In this document: positions 2,901 to 63,140 of the stretch, in pieces
Layout: each line of letters starts with the position of its first letter
Numbering within the stretch: the stretch's first letter is position 1
NCBI RefSeq assembly: GCF_006345805.1
Contig: NC_043002.1
Location: 45,136,001-45,200,000 of the forward strand
Direction: 5' to 3'
Length of the DNA: 64,000 nt
DNA from: Octopus sinensis
Lineage: Eukaryota
Notes under the pieces: generated by a model
Told to the model about the DNA's origin: nothing
Database searches by the model: none
What the model saw: the letters and a program-made list of their open reading frames with translations, nothing else
Made by a program: the position numbers and the translations under genes

Positions 2901-3645
2901 AAAGTGCTTAAAGCATTTTCCATTAAATGCGGCTTCCCGCTGAGATCCGTATGTTGACAAGTTGATGGATTGGAGGACTCTTGGGACATTATCCTATCAA
3001 TAGCATTTGTAGCGATCCATGCAATTAAGTCAATGTGGTTCTACAAGGGTTATTCATTATTGTGAATGATTCGTTATTTGAAAACCTAGGACTCATTTTA
3101 TATGATTTTCTTTTCCTTAATTCTACTTGAAGGTAACTTTTGGTTTGTGAATCGATATCTAAAAATTAATCGCGACGTGAATCCTAGTGAATTATTCCAG
3201 ATCTAGATAGCATCGCAGATTACATTTTTTAAAATAAATTTAGGTCAGCAGCATTAGACAGAATGCTGTGAAAAGTTTGCTAAAAACTGTTGTATATCGA
3301 TTTTTTTAGTTTCAGAAACTTTTTTGTTTTCAGATTATATTCTCGCAGACATACATGCACAATATTTATAAACTTATACACATACATTCAGACAGACAGA
3401 TATTCAGACAGGGAGACAGATATAGATAGATAGATGTATATATAGAGAGATAAAACTTACTTGGAAATAGATGTGTGGCGTTCGATCATATAATAATATA
3501 AGTAATATATATATATGCATATGTACATACATATATATATATATATAACGGGAAGCTTTATGAAAATAAACAAAAGACGAAGGCAGGTGGAAAACAAACG
3601 AACAATTGTATTAGTATGGCGCTCAGGAAATATAAATAAAACAAG

Positions 3646-3683
3646 TCTTTAACGTTTCGAGCCTACGCTCTTCAACAGAAAGA
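3646..3683 (-). ncRNA. Minimal type I hammerhead ribozyme variant
   Basis: Minus strand reads UCUUU-CUGUUGA-A-GAGC(GUAG)GCUC-GAAAC-GUU^AAAGA. Stem I is UCUUU/AAAGA and stem III is the loop-less palindrome AACGUU. The core has A6>U. Confidence 0.6.
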
Positions 3684-3986
3684 TAAGTTCAAGGTTGAAA
3701 GTTCAAGGTGAGAAATGTGTAGACGTCGTGGTATATTTTTTAAGGATTTCACATCAATGCAAAGTCACTTTGATCCGCGAAAGAGAGGTGCAGCCAATGG
3801 TAAGTATATCCAAGGTAGAGGTAAGTGTTGATAGTGGTATTGGTAGAATATAGGATGAAAGTGAGACCACGTGAGCGCATAATATATAACGGGAAGCTTT
3901 ATGAAAATAAACAAAAGACGAAGGCAGGTGGAAAACAAACGAACAATTGTATTAGTATGGCGCTCAGGAAATATAAATAAAACAAG

Positions 3987-4024
3987 TCTTTAACGTTTCG
4001 AGCCTACGCTCTTCAACAGAAAGA
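3987..4024 (-). ncRNA. Minimal type I hammerhead ribozyme variant (second tandem unit)
   Basis: Identical motif to 3646-3683. Confidence 0.6.
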
Positions 4025-4326
4025 TAAGTTCAAGGTTGAAAAAGGTGAGAAATGTGTAGACGTCGTGGTATATTTTTTAAGGATTTCACATCAATGCAAA
4101 GTTACTTTGATCCGCGAAAGAGAGGTGCAGCCAATGGTAAGTATATCCAAGGTAGAGGTAAGTGTTGATAGTGGTATTGGTAGAATATAGGATGAAAGTG
4201 AGACCACGTGAGCGTATAATATATATAACGGGAAGCTTTATGAAAATAAACAAAAGACGAAGGCAGGTGGAAAACAAACGAACAATTGTATTAGTATGGC
4301 GCTCAGGAGATATAAATAAAACAAGT

Positions 4327-4368
<42 letters not shown>

Positions 4369-4729
4369 ACATATATATGTATAATAACATGTATATATGT
4401 GTACAGGACGTCAAGAAAACGTGAACATGAAAAATGAGAACAGGAAAAACAAAAACATGGAAAACGAACTTTTTCGAACAACGAAAGGAACGAGACAGGT
4501 AACATAAATGAGACAGGTAACATAAAGAACGATCCCTTCATCAGTTGTCCCCTGTTTTATCTACTCCGCGTTTCGAACGCTTGGTGCAAGACGCGTCTTC
4601 GTTATTGTAGTTGTTCCCGCAAAGCAAATCAAATAAATTTGGCGATTTCCGATGGGTTAAAGCGGTAGCAAAAACAGGGCAGTAAGAACAAAACAGTAAA
4701 AACAAACGGTAAGGGCTTTTAAACCATAA

Positions 4730-4925: not shown

Positions 4926-5139
4926 TTCTTTTACTCTTTTACTCTTTTACTTGTTTCAGTCATTTGACTGCGGCCATGCTGGAGCACCGCCTTTAGTCGA
5001 GCAAATCGACCCCGGGACTTATTCTTTGTAAGCCCAGTACTTATTCTATCGGTCTCTTTTGCCGAACCGCTAAGTGACGGGGACGTAAACACACCAGCAT
5101 CGATTGTCAAGCAATGCTAGTGGGACAAGCACAAACACA

Positions 5140-5206: not shown

Positions 5207-5208
<2 letters not shown>

Positions 5209-5422
5209 CGGGAAGCTTTATGAAAATAAACAAAAGACGAAGGCAGGTGGAATACAAACAAACAATTGTATTAGTATGGCGCTCAGGAATATAAATAAAA
5301 CAAGTCTTTTACGTTTCGAGCCTACGCTCTTCAACAGAAAGATACACAGAAAAGAAACACATAAAGAACAAGGAGAGAAAAAATGCGTGCAGAGGTTAGC
5401 GAATCAACATGGCGATCTCATG

Positions 5423-5427
<5 letters not shown>
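5207..5427 (-). mobile_element. Dispersed copy of the 3547-family HHR element (HHR at 5305-5342, GUA cleavage triplet)
   Basis: 5207-5344 is nearly identical to 3547-3685, then diverges. Flanked by (TA)n on both sides. Confidence 0.7.
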
Positions 5428-21560: not shown

Positions 21561-23816
21561 ACAAAGCAGATTGGAAATCGATCCAAAAAGAGATCCTCAG
21601 AGAGGACTGGCCGGAATGTCTCTCCACACCAGACATTGACATGAAACTAGAATGTTTCATGTCTTCTGTGCCAGCCGTATGCCAGAAATATGTCCCAGAG
21701 CACAAGGCCAAAACAAATAGGAGCAAGATTCCAAGAGACAGGAAGATCCTCATGAGACGACGGACGAAGGTTGCAAATCGTCTCAACCAACATCCCAAAA
21801 GTAGCGAAACGTCCGCCTAAAAACAACACTGATGGAGATCGAAAAAAGGCTGCAACAATCCTATGTGAAGGAGAAAGCAGACAAAGAAGCCTGGGTTATA
21901 AAAAAACATTAAATCAAACCCAAAGGCCTTCTTTCATTACGCGAAAGAAACAGTCTCAGTGCACTACAAGATAGGACCCCTCCTCCAAAAGGATGGCTCC
22001 CTCACAGACAGTCCAACTATGATCAGTGAGATGCTGAATGACCAGTTCAAAAGTGTCTTTACCACCCCGTTGGAACACAGACAAGTGAACGAACCAGTGG
22101 ACTTCTTTGCCGCCTCACCTATAACCAGCGAGGCGGTTACAATAGAATGTATTGACATTAGCGAAAAAGATGTCCTACTAACCATAGATGAAGTGGACAC
22201 AAACTCAGCTGCTGGTCCAGACGGTTTCCCAGCCATCCTCCTCAAAGCGTGTAAGCATGCCCTGGCAAAACCCCTCAAGATTCTCTTCCAGAGCTTTCTT
22301 GTGAATGGCAAACTGTCAAGCAAGCTGAAGGGGGGAATAATATGCCCAATACATAAAGGGGGAAGTAGAGCAGATGCCAAAAACTATAGGCCTATCTCTC
22401 TGACTTCACACATCAGCAAAGTCATGGAAAGGATAGTCAGAAAGAAACTAATCGCATTCCTTGAGGAAAATAACTTGCTGAGTAATACCCAGCATGGTTT
22501 TCGACTAGGTAGGAGCTGCATGACCCAGCTCTTACAGCATTATGACTGGGTGTTGAGGCAGTTACTCAACAAATCAAATGTGAACGTAATCTACCTTGAT
22601 TTTGCAAAAGCTTTTGACAAGGTGGATCATGGTATGATATGCCACAAACTACGTGACCTCGGCATAGCTGGAAAACTTGGAGTGTGGTTGCATGACTTCC
22701 TGAAAGATAGGAGTCAGGCAGTAGTGGTTAATGGAGCCACCTCTATGAACACACAAATAGTGAGCGGTGTTCCACAGGGCACTGTCTTGGGACCACTGCT
22801 TTTTATAATGGCCCTCTCAGATATGCCCTCAAATGCCCGGATAGCCACTCTGGCCAGCTATGCAGACGATACGAAAGTCTTGCAGAAAATACAGAACCCC
22901 AGCGGTGTTGCACACCTGCAGCAAGAGTTGGACTCAATCTACAGATGGGCTGAGGATAATAATATGCAGTTTAATGATGAAAAATTTTAGGCCCTGCGCT
23001 ACCAGCATCCAAAACTGAATATTAAACTTACGGGATACACCGGTCCACAGGGAATTTCAATCCCAGAGCCTAAGTCTGTAAGGGACCTGGGTATCGACAT
23101 GAGTGATGATACCCCTTTCCAAGTGCACATTACCAGGATGGTGACAAAGTGCAGACGACTGGCTGGGAGGATCCTAAGAACATTCAGAACCAGAGATAAG
23201 GAAACCATGATAGTCCTCTGGCGGACATTCGTCCTCAGTCGCCTGGATTACTGCTCACAGCTATGGTCACCCACCAGTGTAAAATTAACAGCGGACCTTG
23301 AAGCAATCCAGAGAAGATTCACAAAGAAGATCGTCTCTTTGCAACAGCTCAGCTACTGGGAAAGGTTGGAGAGAAGACGGGAGAGGTATGCAGTAATATA
23401 TGTCTGGAAGATCCTGGAAGGAATTATGCCAAGGTTTGACATTGTAAGCTACACCAATGCTAGAATGGGACGACACTGCATAGTGCCAAAGATCCCAGCA
23501 ATGCCATCACGCTTCAGGACCAGCTTCTGCAACAGCCTGGGTTTCAAGGGCCCACAGCTTTTTAATATTCTCCCAAAGAGTCTGAGGAACTTGCACAAAG
23601 TAGATGTAGCGGTTTTTAAATCAAAGCTGGACATCTTCCTGTCAAGAGTTCCAGATGAACCTACCTCACGGCAAGAGGTGCAAATGAGAGTAGCTGTATC
23701 AAACTCCATTCTTCACCAAGTGCCACATATTAGACGAGGTTCGTCGCTATAACAGTGTAGCACAAAACGGCGGTGCATCAGCATGGCCGCAGCTCTGAGC
23801 TGAAACTTGAAAAAAA

Positions 23817-27224: not shown

Positions 27225-29433
27225 ACTTCGACTCAGAGATATTGCTTGGGCTGAATTCAAAAATCCTGATTCGACAGCAGCTTTTGAGGTGTACAAAACT
27301 CAACGAGACCGAGCCGTGAAAATTGAAAAGGAAGAACGCTTCAGATATGACTACAGAATCGCGGCAAACGCCAGTCGCAATCCAAAAACCTTCTTTGCCC
27401 ATGTCCAACGGAATTCCCGCTTGAACAACCAAATTGCAACGTTGGTAGACTCAACAGGCGAATCGATTGAGGACCCTTATTAACAGAGTCAATTATTTGC
27501 CGAGGCTTTTTCAACTATTTTCAAACAAGATGATGGTCGTGAACCCCCTCCATTTGATAGATCGGTACCTCCAATGCTTTGATTGGTCATCACGCGGGAC
27601 GAAGTCGAACGCGTTATTCAAGGTCTCGATGTCAACAAGGGTCACGGCGCTGACGGCATACACCCACGAGTTATCAAAGCGTTGGCTCCGGTCATCTGCG
27701 AGCCCTTAACACGTCTATTCAATATGTCATTGGCGACGGGTGTTATACCTGCGGACTGGAGAACAGCGATAATTTTCAAGAAAGGGAGCCGCGAAGACCC
27801 GCTAAACTACCGACCGGTTTCCCTTACTTCAATAATCAGCAAGATGTTCGAAACCATGCTTAAGAAAAGTATGATGCGCCACCTCCAAAACACAGCCTCT
27901 ATCTCTGATTCCCAACACGGCTTCGTGCCGAAGAGATCATACTTAACCAACTTACTGGTAATGGAAGAATTGGTGATGCGCATCCTCGATGATAGTGATG
28001 CTGTTGACATCGTTTTATTGGACTTTGCCAAAGCTTTTGACTCGGTAAACTACCGCCTATTACCTGTCAAGCTTCAAGCATATAGTTTCCATCCGGATAT
28101 TGTACGATGGGTTGGTGCCTTCCTCTCAGATCGCTCCTTCCAAGTCCAAGTTAATGGTTCGCTGTCCGACGTCTCCAGTGCGAGCAGTGACGTGCCTCAA
28201 GGTTCAGTGCTTGGGCCCTTATTGTTCTTAGTCTTCATAAATAAATTACTTTCCCGACGACCTCACGCAACACACCCTTCTATTTGCCGACGATGTCAAA
28301 CTGGTCGCTCCTCGCGGTGATATAGAGGATCTTCGTCGATGCCTCCACCAAATTTGGAGATGGTCTAACGAATGGGACCTGTGTCTGAACGTGTCAAAGT
28401 GCTGTCATCTGCCTGTTGGCTCTCCTCCTGCAACTCAACTTGATTTCGAGCCGGGTCGTCTGCTGCTGGAGAGGACCGACCAGGTAAAGGATCTGGGTAT
28501 CTTGGTGGATTCCTCCTTTTCGCCTTCGGCCCAGTGCGTCCATGCTGCCAACAAAGCACGCGGAATTCTGTTCTTGATTCGACGGTCATTCGGAATGCTC
28601 ACAGCAGCCATATTACTACCGCTCTATGTCACGCTGGTGAGACCCATATTGGAGTACGGGATTCAAGCCTCTTCTCCTTATCTCCTCAAAGACATACAGC
28701 ATCTCGAAAGAGTCCAGAAGCTGGCTACCCGCATGGTTCTTGGTCTCAAGAATTTGTCTTATGAAGAAGCTTAGTGATGAAGAAGCTTAGAGTTTTAAAT
28801 CAGAATTCGAAAACATTTGCTTGTAGACTTTGAAAAGAGACTTCGTAGAAAGATGTTGTCTTGGTATTTCGACCCAAAAATTTACCGACCAATTTTGGAC
28901 GTAATACCTGAGCTTGAAATAGTTTAGCACCGTCTCTCACTATGCGGTTGCTTTAAATTCATGTGCTTCGTCCGCTACGTAATAATCACTTTCGTCAAAT
29001 GGATTTTTCCTAGGTCTCAAGCATTTGTCTTATGAGGAAAGGCTGAAAACGCTCGACCTTTATTCTCTAGAAAAACGACGACGCCGTGGTGATCTCATTC
29101 TTGCTCACAACATCATAAGCGGAAAGTGTAACCTCTCGAAAGAGCTGTTCTTCACTCCTGCTCCAGAGCGTCGGCTGCGGGGTCACTCCGAAAAGCTCTA
29201 TCTGCGACGATTTCATCTCAATCGAAGGAGAGGGGCTTTCTCCGCCCGGGTTGCGGATCCGTGGAATAAGCTGCCGGACGAGATAGTGAAGATGCCGACG
29301 ACCACTCGGTTAAAAATCTCCCTTGACCACAAGTGGTCTGAACTCTTTACATGAACACCACCCCGTACATAACTAAATGTCCCCCTACATGGCCTTGCTT
29401 TTTGCTTTTTGAGCCAAAAAACTAACTAACTAA
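27225..29433 (+). mobile_element. 5'-truncated CR1-group LINE, second family, frameshifted, with (CTAA)n tail and a ~244-bp interruption
   Basis: NYRPVSLTS, QHGF, LDFAKAFDSV, VPQGSVLGPLLF, FADD (frameshifted), LERVQKLATR and SLEKRRRRGDLI motifs. Tail aactaactaactaac. Confidence 0.9.
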
Positions 29434-39452: not shown

Positions 39453-42400
39453 ATACGATGAAAGAAGTCACCCCCACCTGGTGGACGCCCGGGAGGAGGT
39501 TTTGAATGAGAAACCTGCGGGAAGTGAACCCAGGTGCAAGTTCTCCAACCGGCAGCAAGGGCCATGAGACGGAGAACCCGGTGAAGAGGTAGAGGGAGGA
39601 AGAAGAACTAAAAGAAGGACTGGAAGAGCTAAAGGAAAAGAAAAGCTCAAGCAGGACCAAAGTGTGAAACAACCAGAAAAGAAGTGGAACCGCAAAGGAT
39701 GGAACCAAACAGCGCACACGGTGTGTATGTTCTACCTGAGAGGTTCCTGCTGGCATGGAAAGGAAGGTGCAGGCTGCCGCTTTGCACATCGGGGACCCTG
39801 CCACAGAGACACGAGGCAGATGGACAAACCATCAACACAAAGAAAAGGGATGGACCACGCACCACCTGCCCCAAAACGGAGGTACGCAGATGTTGTGCGC
39901 GCCACAAACAGCCAACATGATGTCGAAAGAGCAGCTGCTGAGCAACAATCTTTTTTGTGCATGGCACAAAAGATTGTACAGCAGCTGACCTGGCTTCATC
40001 AAACCCAAGCCCGCAGGTGGGACTACCCACTATATACCAGACCACCACAGCAAAACAGACACAGGATGGACACCGCCGGCAACAACGTACACCTCACCTC
40101 GATACTCCTACTGACATCAGAGGACTGCAAACCCTCAGTAACAGGACAAGAATCCCGTTCCTGAGAGACTTTGTTGCATGCAATCAAGCCTTATGCATAG
40201 CACTTACAGAAACGCACCTGAAAACCGACATAGCAGATGCGGAGTTACACATACCACAGTATGCTGTACTACGGACCGACAGGAAAGAAAGGAGTCATGG
40301 AGGTGTTGCTATGTAAATCCGTGAGGACCTCACACCCCAGGTCCTCTTGTCATACTCAAACTCGGTGTGTGACACACTAATTGTACATATTAGGCAACTT
40401 GATGTAGTTGTGTGTGCTACATATCGCCCTCCAGATGCCCCAAGCCATGTGGGCAAGTTTGAAGACTGCCTTATAAAAATAGAAGAAATTCTAACCACAT
40501 TAGAGCAACACATAGGTGTGCTTCTTATGGGAGACTTCAATCTGCCAATGTCAGATGGCCCGAGGGCCTTTCTCTCCCAGGAATGACAAGATGTGAACGA
40601 GGACAGGCGAGGTCCCTCCTGAACCTCATCAACACCCTGTACATGGAGCAGGTAATACTCCAACCAACCAGGGCAGTAAACACCACGGATCTCTGCTTCA
40701 CAAATGACATGGATCTCATCCATAATGTGAAAGTGACACCGACACTACTCTCGGATCACAACATGATAGAGCTGACCATGTACGGGCCAAAAGAGAGCAC
40801 GGACATGCAGCCTACAAGAAAACCTCAAAATCTTTCCAGCTTGAACTACCATAAGGCAAACTGGAAACAAATTGAGAAAGAGATCCTCAACAAAACTGGC
40901 CTAATGTCTCTCCTCGCCAGACATCGACGTGAAACTTCAACAATTCATGTCTGTAATGCAGCCATATGCTACAATGTGTCCAGAGAGAAAGGCCACTGTA
41001 CCAAGACCAAATCCCCAGAGAGAGGAAAATTTAATGAGACGGCGTACGAAATTTTAAATCGCCTAAACAAACAGATTGAAAGCAGTGAAAAGTCCCGCCT
41101 AAAAATAAAACTGTTGGAAATCGAAAAATGTCTGCAACTCTCCCATGAAAAAGAAAGAGCAGACAAGAAGCCTGGGCTATAGAAAACATAAAATCTAACC
41201 CCAGAGCTTTCTACAGGTATGCCAAAGAAACAGCTACAGTGCACTGTAAAATAGGGCCACTCCTCGAAAAGGATGGCACACTTACAGGAAAACCAATGAG
41301 GGTAAGTGAAATACTGAATGAGCAATTCAAGAGTGTTTCACTCCACCCCTTGGGCATCTCCAAATCACCAATCCAACTGACTTTTTACCACTGCAGATAT
41401 AAAAATCAGAGGCGGCGACGATAGATTACATCGATATAAAGGAGACGATTGTAACCAAGGCTATAGATGAAATGAAAACAGACTCAGCTACTGGCCCCGA
41501 TGGATTCCCGGCAATCCTCCTAAAAGCATGTAAGAGAGTCCTAGCAAGACCACTGCAGTTCCTCTTTCAGAGCTTCCTTGCAGCTGGCAAACTTCCAGGA
41601 AAACTGAAGGAAGGTAAAATATGCCCCATTCATAAAGGAGGTAGCAGAGCGGAAGCCAAGAACTATAGACCTATCTCTCTGACCTCACACATCAGCAAGG
41701 TCATGGAACGAATAGTCAGAAGGAAGCTGATCACCTTCCTTGAAGAGAATGACTTGCTGCCCGACACCCAACATGGTTTCCGACCAGGGAGAAGCTGTTT
41801 AACTCAGCTCCTACAAACACTATGACTGGGTGCTTGAAACGGCTGCTCAACCACTCAAATGTGGAAGTGATATATCTCGACTTTGCAAAGGCCTTTGATA
41901 AAGTCGATCATGGAATGATATGTCACAAACTGCGTGATCTCAACATAGTTGGAAAACTGGGAGAATGGCTTCATGACTTTCTGAAGGATAGAAGTCAGGT
42001 GGTAGTAGCCAATGGGGCCACCTCCATTAACACACAAATAGTGAGCGGTGTTCCGCAGGGCACTGTTCTGGACCACTACTGTTCATAATGGCCCTCTCAG
42101 ACATGCCCTCAGCCACGCAGAGAGCCACGATCACAAGTTATGCAGATGATACAAAGTTTCACAGGCAATACAGAACCCTGAGGACACTAAACACCTGCAA
42201 TGTGAGCTGGACGAAATATAAAGTGGGCTGAAAAGAATAGCATGCAGTTCAATGCTGGAAAGTTTCAAGCTTTATACTATCAGCATGCAAAACTGAATGC
42301 AATACCCAATGAATACACTGGACCCGGAGGGATTGCAATCCCAGAGGCACAATCAGTGCGTGACCTGGGTATTCACATGAGTGATGACGCGACCTTTCAT

Positions 42401-43136
42401 GTACATGTTGCTAAACTGACAATGAAATGTAGACGGCTGGCTGGATGGATTCTTAGAACCTTTAGAACAGAGAACAAAAAACCATGATGGTCCTCTGGAA
42501 GACACTTGTCCTAAGCCACTTTGACTATTGCTCTCAGCTATGGTCACCAATCCAGTGTCAAGTTGATCACAGAACTTGAGGCGATCCAACGAAGCTACAC
42601 AAAGAAGATAGCCTCTATGCAGAATGTAAGCTACTGGGAAAGACTCAAGAGATTAAAATTATATTCTCTGGAGCGTAGGGCGGAAGATATGCCATAATAT
42701 ACATCTGGAAGATCCTGGAGGGAAGTGTCCTGAACTTTGGCATCGAGAGTTACGCAAATGCCAGAACTGGGCGCCACTGCGTGGTGCCTAGGACTCCAAA
42801 CCTGCCATCAAGATGTAGGACAAGATTCTGTGATAGCCTGGGCTTCCGAGGCCCACAGCTCTTCAATATCCTCCCGAAGAACCTGAGAGACCTGCATGGG
42901 GTGGATACAGATGTCTTTAAAATGAAGCTGGATCTCTTCCTGTCAGGTGTCCCAGATGAACCAACTTCACGGCAGGAGGGGCAGATGAGGGCAGGGCATC
43001 GAACTCTCTCATGCACCAAATAGCAGTTGCTAGAAAGCCTCCATGAAGTGAAACCAAGTAGCAACACCAAATGGCGGTGCCCCAGCATGGCCACAGCTCA
43101 TAAGCTGAAACTAGAATCAATCAATCAATCAATCAA
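39453..43136 (+). mobile_element. Near full-length CR1-group LINE: ORF1 remnant with CCCH zinc finger, APE endonuclease, RT, (TCAA)n tail; many 1-nt indels
   Basis: ORF1 has CMFYLRGSCWHGKEGAGCRFAH. APE motifs IRGL, IALTETHL, RTDR..SHGGVA, YRPP, GDFNLP, DLCFTN and SDH. RT motifs NYRPISLTS, DFAKAFDKVDH, GVPQGTVL and YADD. Confidence 0.95.
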
Positions 43137-43225
43137 TATATATATATAATATATATATATATATATAATATATATATATATATAATATATATATATAATA
43201 TATATATATATAATATATATATAAT

Positions 43226-43627
43226 ATTTGATTTTGATTTTGATTTTTCCAGTTTCAGCTAATGAGCTGTGGCCATGCTGGGGCACCGCCATTTGGTTTG
43301 CTACACGGTTTACCTCACGGATGTTTGTTGGCAAACGCCATCTGGTGCATGAGAGAGTTCGATGCAGCTGCTGCTCTCATCTGCACCTCCTGCCGTGTGA
43401 AGTTGGTTCATCCGGGACACCTGACAGGAAGAGATCCAGTCCTACTTTAAAGACATCCGCATCCACACCATGCAGGTCCCTCAGGTTCTTCGGGAGGATA
43501 TTGAAGAGCCGTGGGCCTCTGAAGCCCAGGCTATCACAATATCTTGTCCTACATTTTGATGGCAAATTTGGAGTCCTTGGTACTACACAGTGGCGTCCGG
43601 TTCTGGCATTTGTGTGACTCTCGATGC

Positions 43628-62929: not shown

Positions 62930-63140
62930 TATTATTCAAATTTACAGAAAACAAAAGACGAAGACAGGTGAGGGAACAACAAGCAGTTGTATTAGTTTGA
63001 CACTTGGGAAGAATGGAAACGTCTTCGACGTTTCGAGCCTACGCTCTTCGACAGTAAGGGTTGAAGGGAAAAGACGAAGAGATTAAGAAAAAAGACAGAG
63101 AAAGAAAGAAATGTATAGAGATTAACAGTTCAACATGGTG
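62930..63140 (-). mobile_element. Diverged member of the 3547 HHR-element family (motif 63022-63059)
   Basis: aaacaaaagacgaagacaggtg...ttgtattagt...acgtttcgagcctacgctcttcgacag. Minus strand reads CUGUCGA-A-GAGC(GUAG)GCUC-GAAAC-GUC. Confidence 0.65.

What the first reader, a model, noticed from the sequence alone, without database searches (positions are those of the whole stretch)
3547..4330. Retrozyme-like 340-bp tandem whose end coincides with the predicted self-cleavage site
Seen: 2.3 head-to-tail units (periods 341 and 339). On the ribozyme (minus) strand the array begins at AAAGACUUGU (plus-strand 4330), which is immediately 3' of the predicted GUU^ cleavage, with 1 nt of ambiguity from the adjacent (TA)n. 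Established: non-LTR retrozymes are tandem monomers of a few hundred nt that self-cleave and circularise. Inference: this insertion is a cDNA of a self-cleaved RNA, implying the variant core was active.
Basis: partly seen in the sequence, partly recalled or inferred. Interest (0 to 1): 0.75.

Follow-up and report, generated by a model that had tools for sequence, protein, structure and literature searches.

The report
Shrunken Penelope element mimicking a retrozyme
This 340-base tandem is the two ends of an abundant Penelope-type jumping gene joined together with the middle missing, likely copied 2.3 times round a short RNA by that element's own enzyme; its start at the predicted ribozyme cut site is probably chance, but similar arrays have arisen at least eleven separate times in this genome, which may show how retrozymes are born.

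Summary
The tandem is real (341 + 339 + 103 nt) and begins at the predicted cut site of a minimal type I hammerhead motif, with 2 nt (TA) of junction ambiguity, not 1. It is not an independent retrozyme family. The unit is about 200 nt of the 5' end plus 138 nt of the 3' end of a 4.5-kb autonomous Penelope-like element (RT + GIY-YIG, Neptune-type linker). Its internal junction occurs nowhere else in the genome. The cut-site inference is not supported. 1 of 100 3'-anchored copies and 1 of 11 multi-unit arrays start there; genome-wide it is 31 of 4,758. An excess of up to about 2-fold is not excluded. Two better leads emerged. (1) 21 mini-elements, 11 of them multi-unit arrays, each have a private junction, and all keep the whole ribozyme (23 of 100 ordinary copies lose it; Fisher p=0.012). 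(2) The core has U at position 6 in 10,525 of 10,837 copies while N7 and N17 vary. Cleavage and circular RNA are untested. The scan noted other Penelope-mobilised retrozymes in this genome before, but not this family.

The parts
3548..4330 (-). Mini-element array of 2.3 units derived from a Penelope-like element; 5' end at 4330 (4331-4329 ambiguous), 3' end at 3548
4228..4330 (-). Partial first unit: the last 103 nt of the element (cut site to the family's fixed 3' end); acts as the pseudo-LTR
4026..4227 (-). 5' ~200 nt of the autonomous element (start of the 5' UTR), unit 2; head-to-tail joint at 4228/4227
   Evidence: BLAST to full-length copy L068
3889..4026 (-). 3' 138 nt of the autonomous element, unit 2, re-entering 35 nt upstream of the cut site; private junction at 4026 (1-nt microhomology)
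3987..4024 (-). Minimal type I hammerhead motif, U6 core (CUGUUGA + inserted A), 4-bp stem II, palindromic ACGU in place of stem III, GUU triplet; predicted cut 3992/3991
   Evidence: sequence, descriptor, alignment and pair counts
3685..3888 (-). 5' ~200 nt of the autonomous element, unit 1; head-to-tail joint at 3889/3888
3548..3685 (-). 3' 138 nt of the autonomous element, unit 1; same private junction at 3685; ends at the family's fixed 3' end
3646..3683 (-). Second hammerhead motif, identical to the first; predicted cut 3651/3650
3505..3547 (.). (TA)n target, 3' flank of the insertion
4331..4398 (.). (TA)n target, 5' flank; shares TA with the element at 4331-4330
5208..5425 (-). Separate 5'-truncated solo copy of the same element family (GUA triplet; motif at 5305-5342), also in (TA)n
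62949..63062 (-). Diverged subfamily copy (78% identical) with CUGUCGA core and GUC triplet

Best explanation
The array is a non-autonomous mini-derivative of an abundant, co-resident Penelope-like element, made of that element's first ~200 and last 138 bases, and it was likely written into a (TA)n site in one event by the element's own reverse transcriptase running 2.3 laps on a short RNA template, stopping probably by ordinary TA-microhomology truncation that happens to fall on the predicted cut site. SHOWN: the parent is a ~4.5-kb element with RT, a C-terminal GIY-YIG domain, a CX4CxxC linker and the hammerhead motif 103 nt from its fixed 3' end; copies end in (TA)n and have scattered 5' ends; the junction of this unit is private; ten other arrays have the same build with their own junctions. 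INFERRED: priming at the internal UAUAUAU that follows the 3' end on an RNA spanning the head-to-tail joint; a short template closed into a circle or read by repeated end-to-end jumps. I slightly favour a template whose own two ends form the junction, with its single hammerhead uncut (a one-motif fragment cannot form the dimer that such minimal motifs need), over a ribozyme-ligated circle from an unseen deleted parent. In both versions no RNA end lies at the cut site.
For: Parent: HHR-to-HHR spacing 4.35-4.52 kb in 5 of the 20 long stretches fetched, plus 4.0 kb in one more. RVT_1 in 5 and GIY-YIG in 3 of 13 ORF pieces; the GIY-YIG hits and 3 of the RVT_1 hits are below Pfam's cut-off. DKG motif, CSRPRCRTC linker and the two-Cys/two-His pattern in the nuclease region (motif names from PMC8557442). 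Unit maps to the element's two ends. Junction found only twice, both in this array. 11 multi-unit arrays and 10 single-junction minis among 93 loci; no junction shared; 16 of 21 have 0-2 nt microhomology; none at the cut site. 8 of 11 arrays begin inside the 5' part, so the junction had to be on the template more than once or be passed more than once. Two copies (L249, L270) end in (TA)n at other sites 41 and 152 nt past the joint. 87 of 93 joint-bearing loci read through the cut site. 5' ends cluster at other microhomology sites: 6 at -103 and 9 at -109/-110 versus 1 at the cut site, of 100. The circular-template model for PLEs and retrozymes is proposed in PMC4209133 and PMC7229834.
Against: A modest excess at the cut site is not excluded. 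31 observed versus 16-22 expected from a uniform rate without any microhomology term (Poisson p 0.0004-0.04). 11 ends versus 2 and 4 at the two other pure 2-nt TA sites in the same genome range (p=0.008, hand tally, pools not normalised), although versus all four control sites (13, 11, 2, 4) p=0.18. For this one array, DNA-level duplication between its 103-nt direct repeats would give the same shape. The two units differ at 4 places, which one-event copying explains only by later mutation or RT error. No RNA, circle or cleavage was observed. 22 of 122 joint places were not listed; only 1 of those (L021) was examined.
Confidence: 0.6

Rival explanations
1. One reading: the template was a multimeric RNA whose 5' end had been made by hammerhead cleavage, and the RT ran off that end at 4330, so the U6 core was active.
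For: The end fits within the 3 possible breakpoints. 31 genome-wide copies start the same way, about 1.4-2 times a uniform expectation and more than at two other 2-nt TA sites (11 vs 2 and 4). The motif shows N7 and N17 variation of the kind expected under selection.
Against: No spike: 0 of 90, 1 of 100, 1 of 93, 1 of 11. ATA-microhomology sites 30-40 nt downstream have as many ends (13 and 11 vs 11). Both internal sites in this very array were read through uncut. None of 21 mini junctions uses the cut site. Position-6 changes lower activity in published hammerheads (A6C: PMC3088659, PMC7151607). Minimal PLE hammerheads cleave poorly in vitro (PMC4209133).
Confidence: 0.2
2. A single-junction mini was inserted once and then duplicated at the DNA level by unequal crossover or slippage between its 103-nt direct repeats; no short RNA template and no ribozyme activity are needed.
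For: This array starts inside the 3' part, so the geometry allows it. The units differ at 4 places. Local satellite-like amplification of pLTR sequence is the scenario discussed in bioRxiv 10.64898/2026.07.22.740005.
Against: 8 of the 10 other arrays start inside the 5' part and cannot arise this way from a single-junction insertion. It does not explain why 21 of 21 junctions keep the hammerhead when 23 of 100 ordinary copies lose part or all of it (Fisher p=0.012; p=0.0009 when limited to the last 300 nt).
Confidence: 0.15
3. The tandem is an assembly artefact.
For: Repeat copies in this assembly carry many small indels. No read or contig laid here spans the array.
Against: The units are not identical, and ten other loci show the same architecture with other periods.
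Confidence: 0.03

Closest known systems
Penelope-like elements of the Neptune/Nematis type with minimal hammerheads in the pLTR (PMC4209133, parts 1-2 of 4 read; PMC8557442, passages)
   Same: RT with C-terminal GIY-YIG, CX2-5CxxC linker, partial-tandem pLTR, heavy 5' truncation, microsatellite targets. Hammerhead with an extra base between 9 and 10.1, G10.1-C11.1, and palindromic 15.2-16.2 with no loop III.
   Different: The core has U6 instead of A6 across more than 10,000 copies. The window array has lost ~4.1 kb including the whole ORF. Clade was judged by motifs only, no tree.
Metazoan non-LTR retrozymes (PMC7229834, passages; bioRxiv 10.64898/2026.07.22.740005, parts 1 and 3 of 5 read)
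   Same: Non-coding head-to-tail units of 170-400 nt with one type I hammerhead each, low GC (38%), proposed rolling-circle insertion by PLE enzymes.
   Different: Single locus, not a dispersed family. Every base of the unit is traceable to the two ends of an autonomous element in the same genome. Minimal, non-canonical core. The predicted circle is not unusually self-paired (z +0.5). No RNA shown.
Non-autonomous Chlamys PLE derivatives such as MRC1 (PMC8557442, passage)
   Same: [quoted passage not shown]
   Different: Those are established families, mostly without hammerheads. Here each mini has a private junction and all keep the hammerhead.
Natural position-6 hammerhead variant A6C of phage Bcep176 (PMC3088659, PMC7151607; passages)
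   Same: Change at the otherwise invariant position 6.
   Different: C rather than U; a single phage motif rather than a high-copy retroelement family. A6C was assayed (slow in Mg2+, rescued by Mn2+); U6 here was not.

Membership tests
Penelope-like element (parent) | RT with C-terminal GIY-YIG endonuclease | tested here: met
   RVT_1 E 5.6e-8 best; GIY-YIG E 0.0009-0.0025, below the gathering cut-off, downstream of RT; NIIYCISC...LYIGQT motif. ORFs are frameshifted in the copies examined.
Penelope-like element (parent) | Partial-tandem pLTR, 5' truncation, hammerhead in the pLTR | tested here: met
   122 exact head-to-tail joints
Neptune/Nematis type | CX2-5CxxC linker upstream of a C-terminal GIY-YIG; microsatellite targets | tested here: met
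   CSRPRCRTC; 3,816 exact 3' ends followed by (TA)n; feature from PMC8557442
Neptune/Nematis type | RT phylogeny places it in the clade | not tested
   no reference PLE proteins were fetched and no tree was built
Type I hammerhead (minimal, PLE type) | Stems I and II, extra base after A9, G10.1-C11.1, palindromic 15.2-16.2, NUH triplet | tested here: met
   91% of cells paired; one compensatory change in stem I (55 of 500 shuffles reach it, not significant); stem II invariant; N17 = U, A or C
Type I hammerhead (minimal, PLE type) | Canonical core C3 U4 G5 A6 N7 G8 A9 | tested here: not met
   U6 in 10,525 of 10,837 exact pattern matches; a sister family next to L176 has A6 with the same architecture
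Type I hammerhead (minimal, PLE type) | Self-cleavage (as a dimer) | not testable with these tools
   needs an in vitro assay
Non-LTR retrozyme | Non-coding tandem units of ~170-400 nt with a type I hammerhead in each unit | tested here: met
   the motif is a variant core
Non-LTR retrozyme | Dispersed, self-propagating family of the same unit | tested here: not met
   junction pattern found 2 times genome-wide, both in this array
Non-LTR retrozyme | Highly self-paired circular monomer | tested here: not met
   circular MFE -40.7 vs shuffles -42.8 +/- 4.1 kcal/mol, z +0.5, 46% paired
Non-LTR retrozyme | Abundant linear and circular monomer RNA in tissues | not testable with these tools
   needs Northern blot, RT-PCR or raw RNA reads
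Non-LTR retrozyme | Target-site duplication, when present | tested here: inconclusive
   both flanks are (TA)n

The most novel reading that the evidence does not exclude
Short hammerhead-bearing RNA pieces of an autonomous Penelope-like element are turned, without any genomic parent, into rolling-circle templates for that element's own RT. The genome would then hold at least eleven independent snapshots of retrozymes being born, and the U6 hammerhead shared by more than 10,000 copies would be a working (or RT-recognised) new natural core variant.
Probability: 0.35. Interest if true: 0.7.

Novelty: new variant of a known kind. Interest (0 to 1): 0.42.

Why it matters
The origin of animal retrozymes from Penelope-like elements has been argued from co-occurrence and pLTR phylogeny (bioRxiv 10.64898/2026.07.22.740005), and the circular-template model for PLE copying is a proposal (PMC4209133). 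Here parent and derivative sit in one genome with base-level junctions, and the event has happened many times independently. That makes the birth step and the role of the hammerhead testable with simple assays. The family also offers a natural position-6 hammerhead variant, which a search that requires the canonical A6 would miss and which Rfam did not hit here. The specific claim handed to me, that the end marks a cleavage, is probably a coincidence and adds little by itself.

Tried and rejected
Rfam on the whole window and on 3500-4400: no hammerhead family, only low-complexity miRNA-type hits.

Sequencing runs: no RNA holder listed. Two runs guessed to be RNA have contigs on the hammerhead part and none across the junction; not used as evidence. 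One 90-nt contig of DNA run X1 crosses the junction in unit-2 form but has only 29 letters on the short side, under the tool's 31-letter rule, so it is not counted as a bridge. That run may be the assembly's own sample.

Splicing as the origin of the junction was rejected: the window junction has no AG acceptor at either register.

The idea that U6 is kept to lock the core in an inactive helix (U4-G16.2, G5-C15.2, U6-A15.1; probability 0.97-0.98 in the U7 subfamily) is not general: 0.00-0.82 in the six other U6 variants folded. Left as a side note.

A shared parent for the minis was not found among the 93 loci. Only the window's junction was searched genome-wide.

Lunse, Weinberg and Breaker (RNA Biol 14:1499, on PLE hammerhead variants) is not held. 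I saw only its citation and a review's summary, so I cannot say whether a U6 variant is described there. Searches for octopus + hammerhead + Penelope, for A6U and for the core strings found no paper on this variant in the held library. Supplements of PMC4209133 and of the preprint, which list many HHR variants, were not read and may bear on novelty.

Rows set aside: 8 copies of a subfamily with a 31-nt duplication and 2 copies with internal indels (L316, L343) gave false early stops and were not counted as truncations. In some searches, L273, L249 and L270 were judged not to be minis. L180 has an internal deletion that rejoins the ORF and was not counted. L004 lacks the exact joint and was left out of the 21.

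Full report
OBSERVATION. The tandem is present as described: periods 341 and 339 plus a partial unit, 97-99% alike. On the minus strand each full unit has a minimal type I hammerhead motif: stem I UCUUU/AAAGA, core CUGUUGA, one extra A, stem II GAGC/GCUC, GAAA, the palindrome ACGU instead of a stem III, and a GUU triplet. The extra base, the G10.1-C11.1 pair and the palindrome are the features listed for PLE minimal hammerheads in PMC4209133 (parts 1-2 of 4 read). Rfam does not hit it. The array's 5' end lies at the predicted cut, but the flank shares two bases (TA) with the element, so three breakpoints fit.

WHAT THE UNIT IS. A search of the own genome found many partial matches that diverge at the same point. 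Long stretches around them show hammerhead-to-hammerhead spacings of 4.35-4.52 kb in five loci, with RT and downstream GIY-YIG hits, a DKG motif, a CSRPRCRTC linker and the Cys/His pattern of PLE nucleases. By the motif descriptions in PMC8557442 (passages) this is a Neptune/Nematis-type Penelope-like element; no tree was made. An earlier scan note calls the genome an octopus genome; I did not test that. Against a natural full-length copy (L068, 4,521 nt) the window unit is element positions 1-219 joined to the last 138 nt, re-entering 35 nt upstream of the cut site, 2 nt outside stem I. The junction occurs twice in the genome, both times in this array. The family is large: 2,938 exact copies of a 32-mer after the cut site, 3,816 exact 3' ends in (TA)n, 122 exact head-to-tail joints and 10,837 copies of the core pattern across subfamilies.

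TEST OF THE CUT-SITE INFERENCE. Of 90 copies on contig C1 anchored just downstream of the site (90 of the 100 listed), none starts at it; 9 start within the 25 nt upstream. Of the first 100 copies anchored at the 3' end, 1 starts at it, while 6 start at -103 and 9 at -109/-110. Genome-wide, 31 copies have a TA flank joined at this site, out of 4,758 that carry the downstream 20-mer. Of the 30 fetched, only this one contains a hammerhead nearby or continues into the element's 5' part; the rest are short solo 3' fragments. In the common range C1 to C6:57.9 Mb a hand tally of the listings gives 11 for the cut site, against 13 and 11 for two ATA sites and 2 and 4 for two TA sites. Against all four controls p=0.18; against the two 2-nt sites alone p=0.008, pools not normalised. 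Against a uniform rate, 31 exceeds the expected 16-22. So there is no spike, but an excess of up to about two-fold remains possible. I put the chance that this particular end marks a cleaved RNA at about 0.2-0.25. Of 93 loci with a head-to-tail joint, 87 read through the site, 5 stop downstream of it and only this one starts at it. A linear cleaved RNA is therefore not the usual template.

THE WIDER PATTERN. The 93 loci (92 covering the 100 listed of 122 joints, plus L021) include 21 mini-elements. Eleven are arrays that repeat one junction 2-5 times (periods about 258-606 nt) and ten have a single junction. No junction is shared; 16 have 0-2 nt of microhomology; none uses the cut site. Eight of the 11 arrays begin inside the 5' part, which duplication of a single-junction insertion cannot produce. 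Ten of 11 were seen to end at the fixed 3' end in (TA)n; the last end of L176 was not captured by the script. All 21 re-enter upstream of stem I (from -35, the window, to about -590), whereas 23 of 100 ordinary copies start downstream of -35 (Fisher p=0.012; 0 of 19 vs 23 of about 61 within the last 300 nt, p=0.0009). The null is imperfect, because ordinary truncation joins to the target and not to the element. The joint pattern used to find the minis does not contain the hammerhead, so minis lacking it would have been found.

THE CORE. Position 6 is U in 10,525 of 10,837 matches. In the first 100 listed, N7 is U 63, C 16, A 12, G 9, and N17 is A 54, U 46, never G (hand tally); a GUC copy lies at 63 kb in the window. 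The other core positions were fixed by the pattern, so this search does not measure their conservation. A sister family beside L176 has A6, the same stem II with another loop, and a C-G to G-C swap in stem I; that single covariation is not significant (55 of 500 shuffles). Free N7 and H17 across subfamilies fit selection on a hammerhead fold (inference). Published A6C variants are slow in Mg2+ (PMC3088659, PMC7151607; passages). In the one preprint that assayed retrozyme dimers, 1 of 9 cleaved (10.64898/2026.07.22.740005, part 3). Activity is open.

MECHANISM. Shown: parentage, junctions, ends, copy patterns. Inferred: the element's nuclease nicks (TA)n, and the RT primes at the UAUAUAU stretch that follows the 3' end on an RNA spanning the head-to-tail joint; L249 and L270 end at other sites beyond the joint, which fits priming on such an RNA. 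For the minis the template must have been short and passed more than once. Either it was a ribozyme-cut and ligated circle from a deleted genomic parent, or it was an RNA piece whose own ends form the junction, closed by a ligase or by repeated template jumps, with its one hammerhead uncut. Private junctions, little microhomology and the lack of parents or cut-site junctions tilt me to the second; retention of the motif would then reflect recognition or protection rather than catalysis. Neither version puts an RNA end at the cut site.

COMPARISON AND VERDICT. It works like a non-LTR retrozyme insertion but fails membership on dispersal and self-pairing, and expression and cleavage are untested. 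It is a derivative of a Penelope-like element. A link between the two classes is already proposed in print (PMC7229834, passages; the 2026 preprint), and earlier scan notes describe several true retrozyme families in this genome. A look-up by sequence found no note on this family. What is added here is base-level parentage, repeated independent births and the U6 core. The held library gave no report of these, but the most relevant paper on PLE hammerhead variants was not available. New variant of a known kind; interest 0.42.

Noticed in passing
L176 (G000:C1:55.16 Mb), L189, L199, L229 (C4:78.78 Mb), L237, L243 (C8:39.64 Mb), L261 (C15:1.45 Mb), L263, L271, L021: Ten further tandem mini-arrays of the same Penelope-like element, periods about 258-606 nt, each with its own junction repeated 2-5 times; all keep the hammerhead motif.
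   Followed up: yes
L176:781-823: A sister element fragment with a canonical A6 minimal hammerhead (same stem II, different loop, swapped stem I pair) lies about 100 nt upstream of a mini-array; a natural control for the U6 core.
   Followed up: partly
L007 (G000:C6:45,129,277-45,129,894), about 6 kb before the window; window 5208-5425: Two more insertions of the same family close to the array: a single-junction mini and a solo truncated copy.
   Followed up: partly
L176, L199, L232, L234, L238 junctions: Five of 21 minis break at the same 5'-part position, just after a TTATATT word that resembles the target and the head-to-tail joint.
   Followed up: no
L180, L235, L263, L273: Other rearranged copies: internal deletions that rejoin the ORF, and a copy joined to an inverted piece of itself.
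   Followed up: no
L284:2024 onward: A different hammerhead-like motif with canonical core, longer stem II and an 8-nt palindrome in stem III, picked up by my descriptor.
   Followed up: no
window 21902-23752 and 27583-28774 (+), 39568-41182 (+): Long ORFs whose translations look like fragments of non-LTR retrotransposon RT and endonuclease genes (by eye; not scanned).
   Followed up: no
window 43057-43304: A long inverted repeat around a (TA)n tract, made of two head-to-head copies of a dispersed short repeat also seen near 4970-5100; it gives spurious plant miRNA hits.
   Followed up: no
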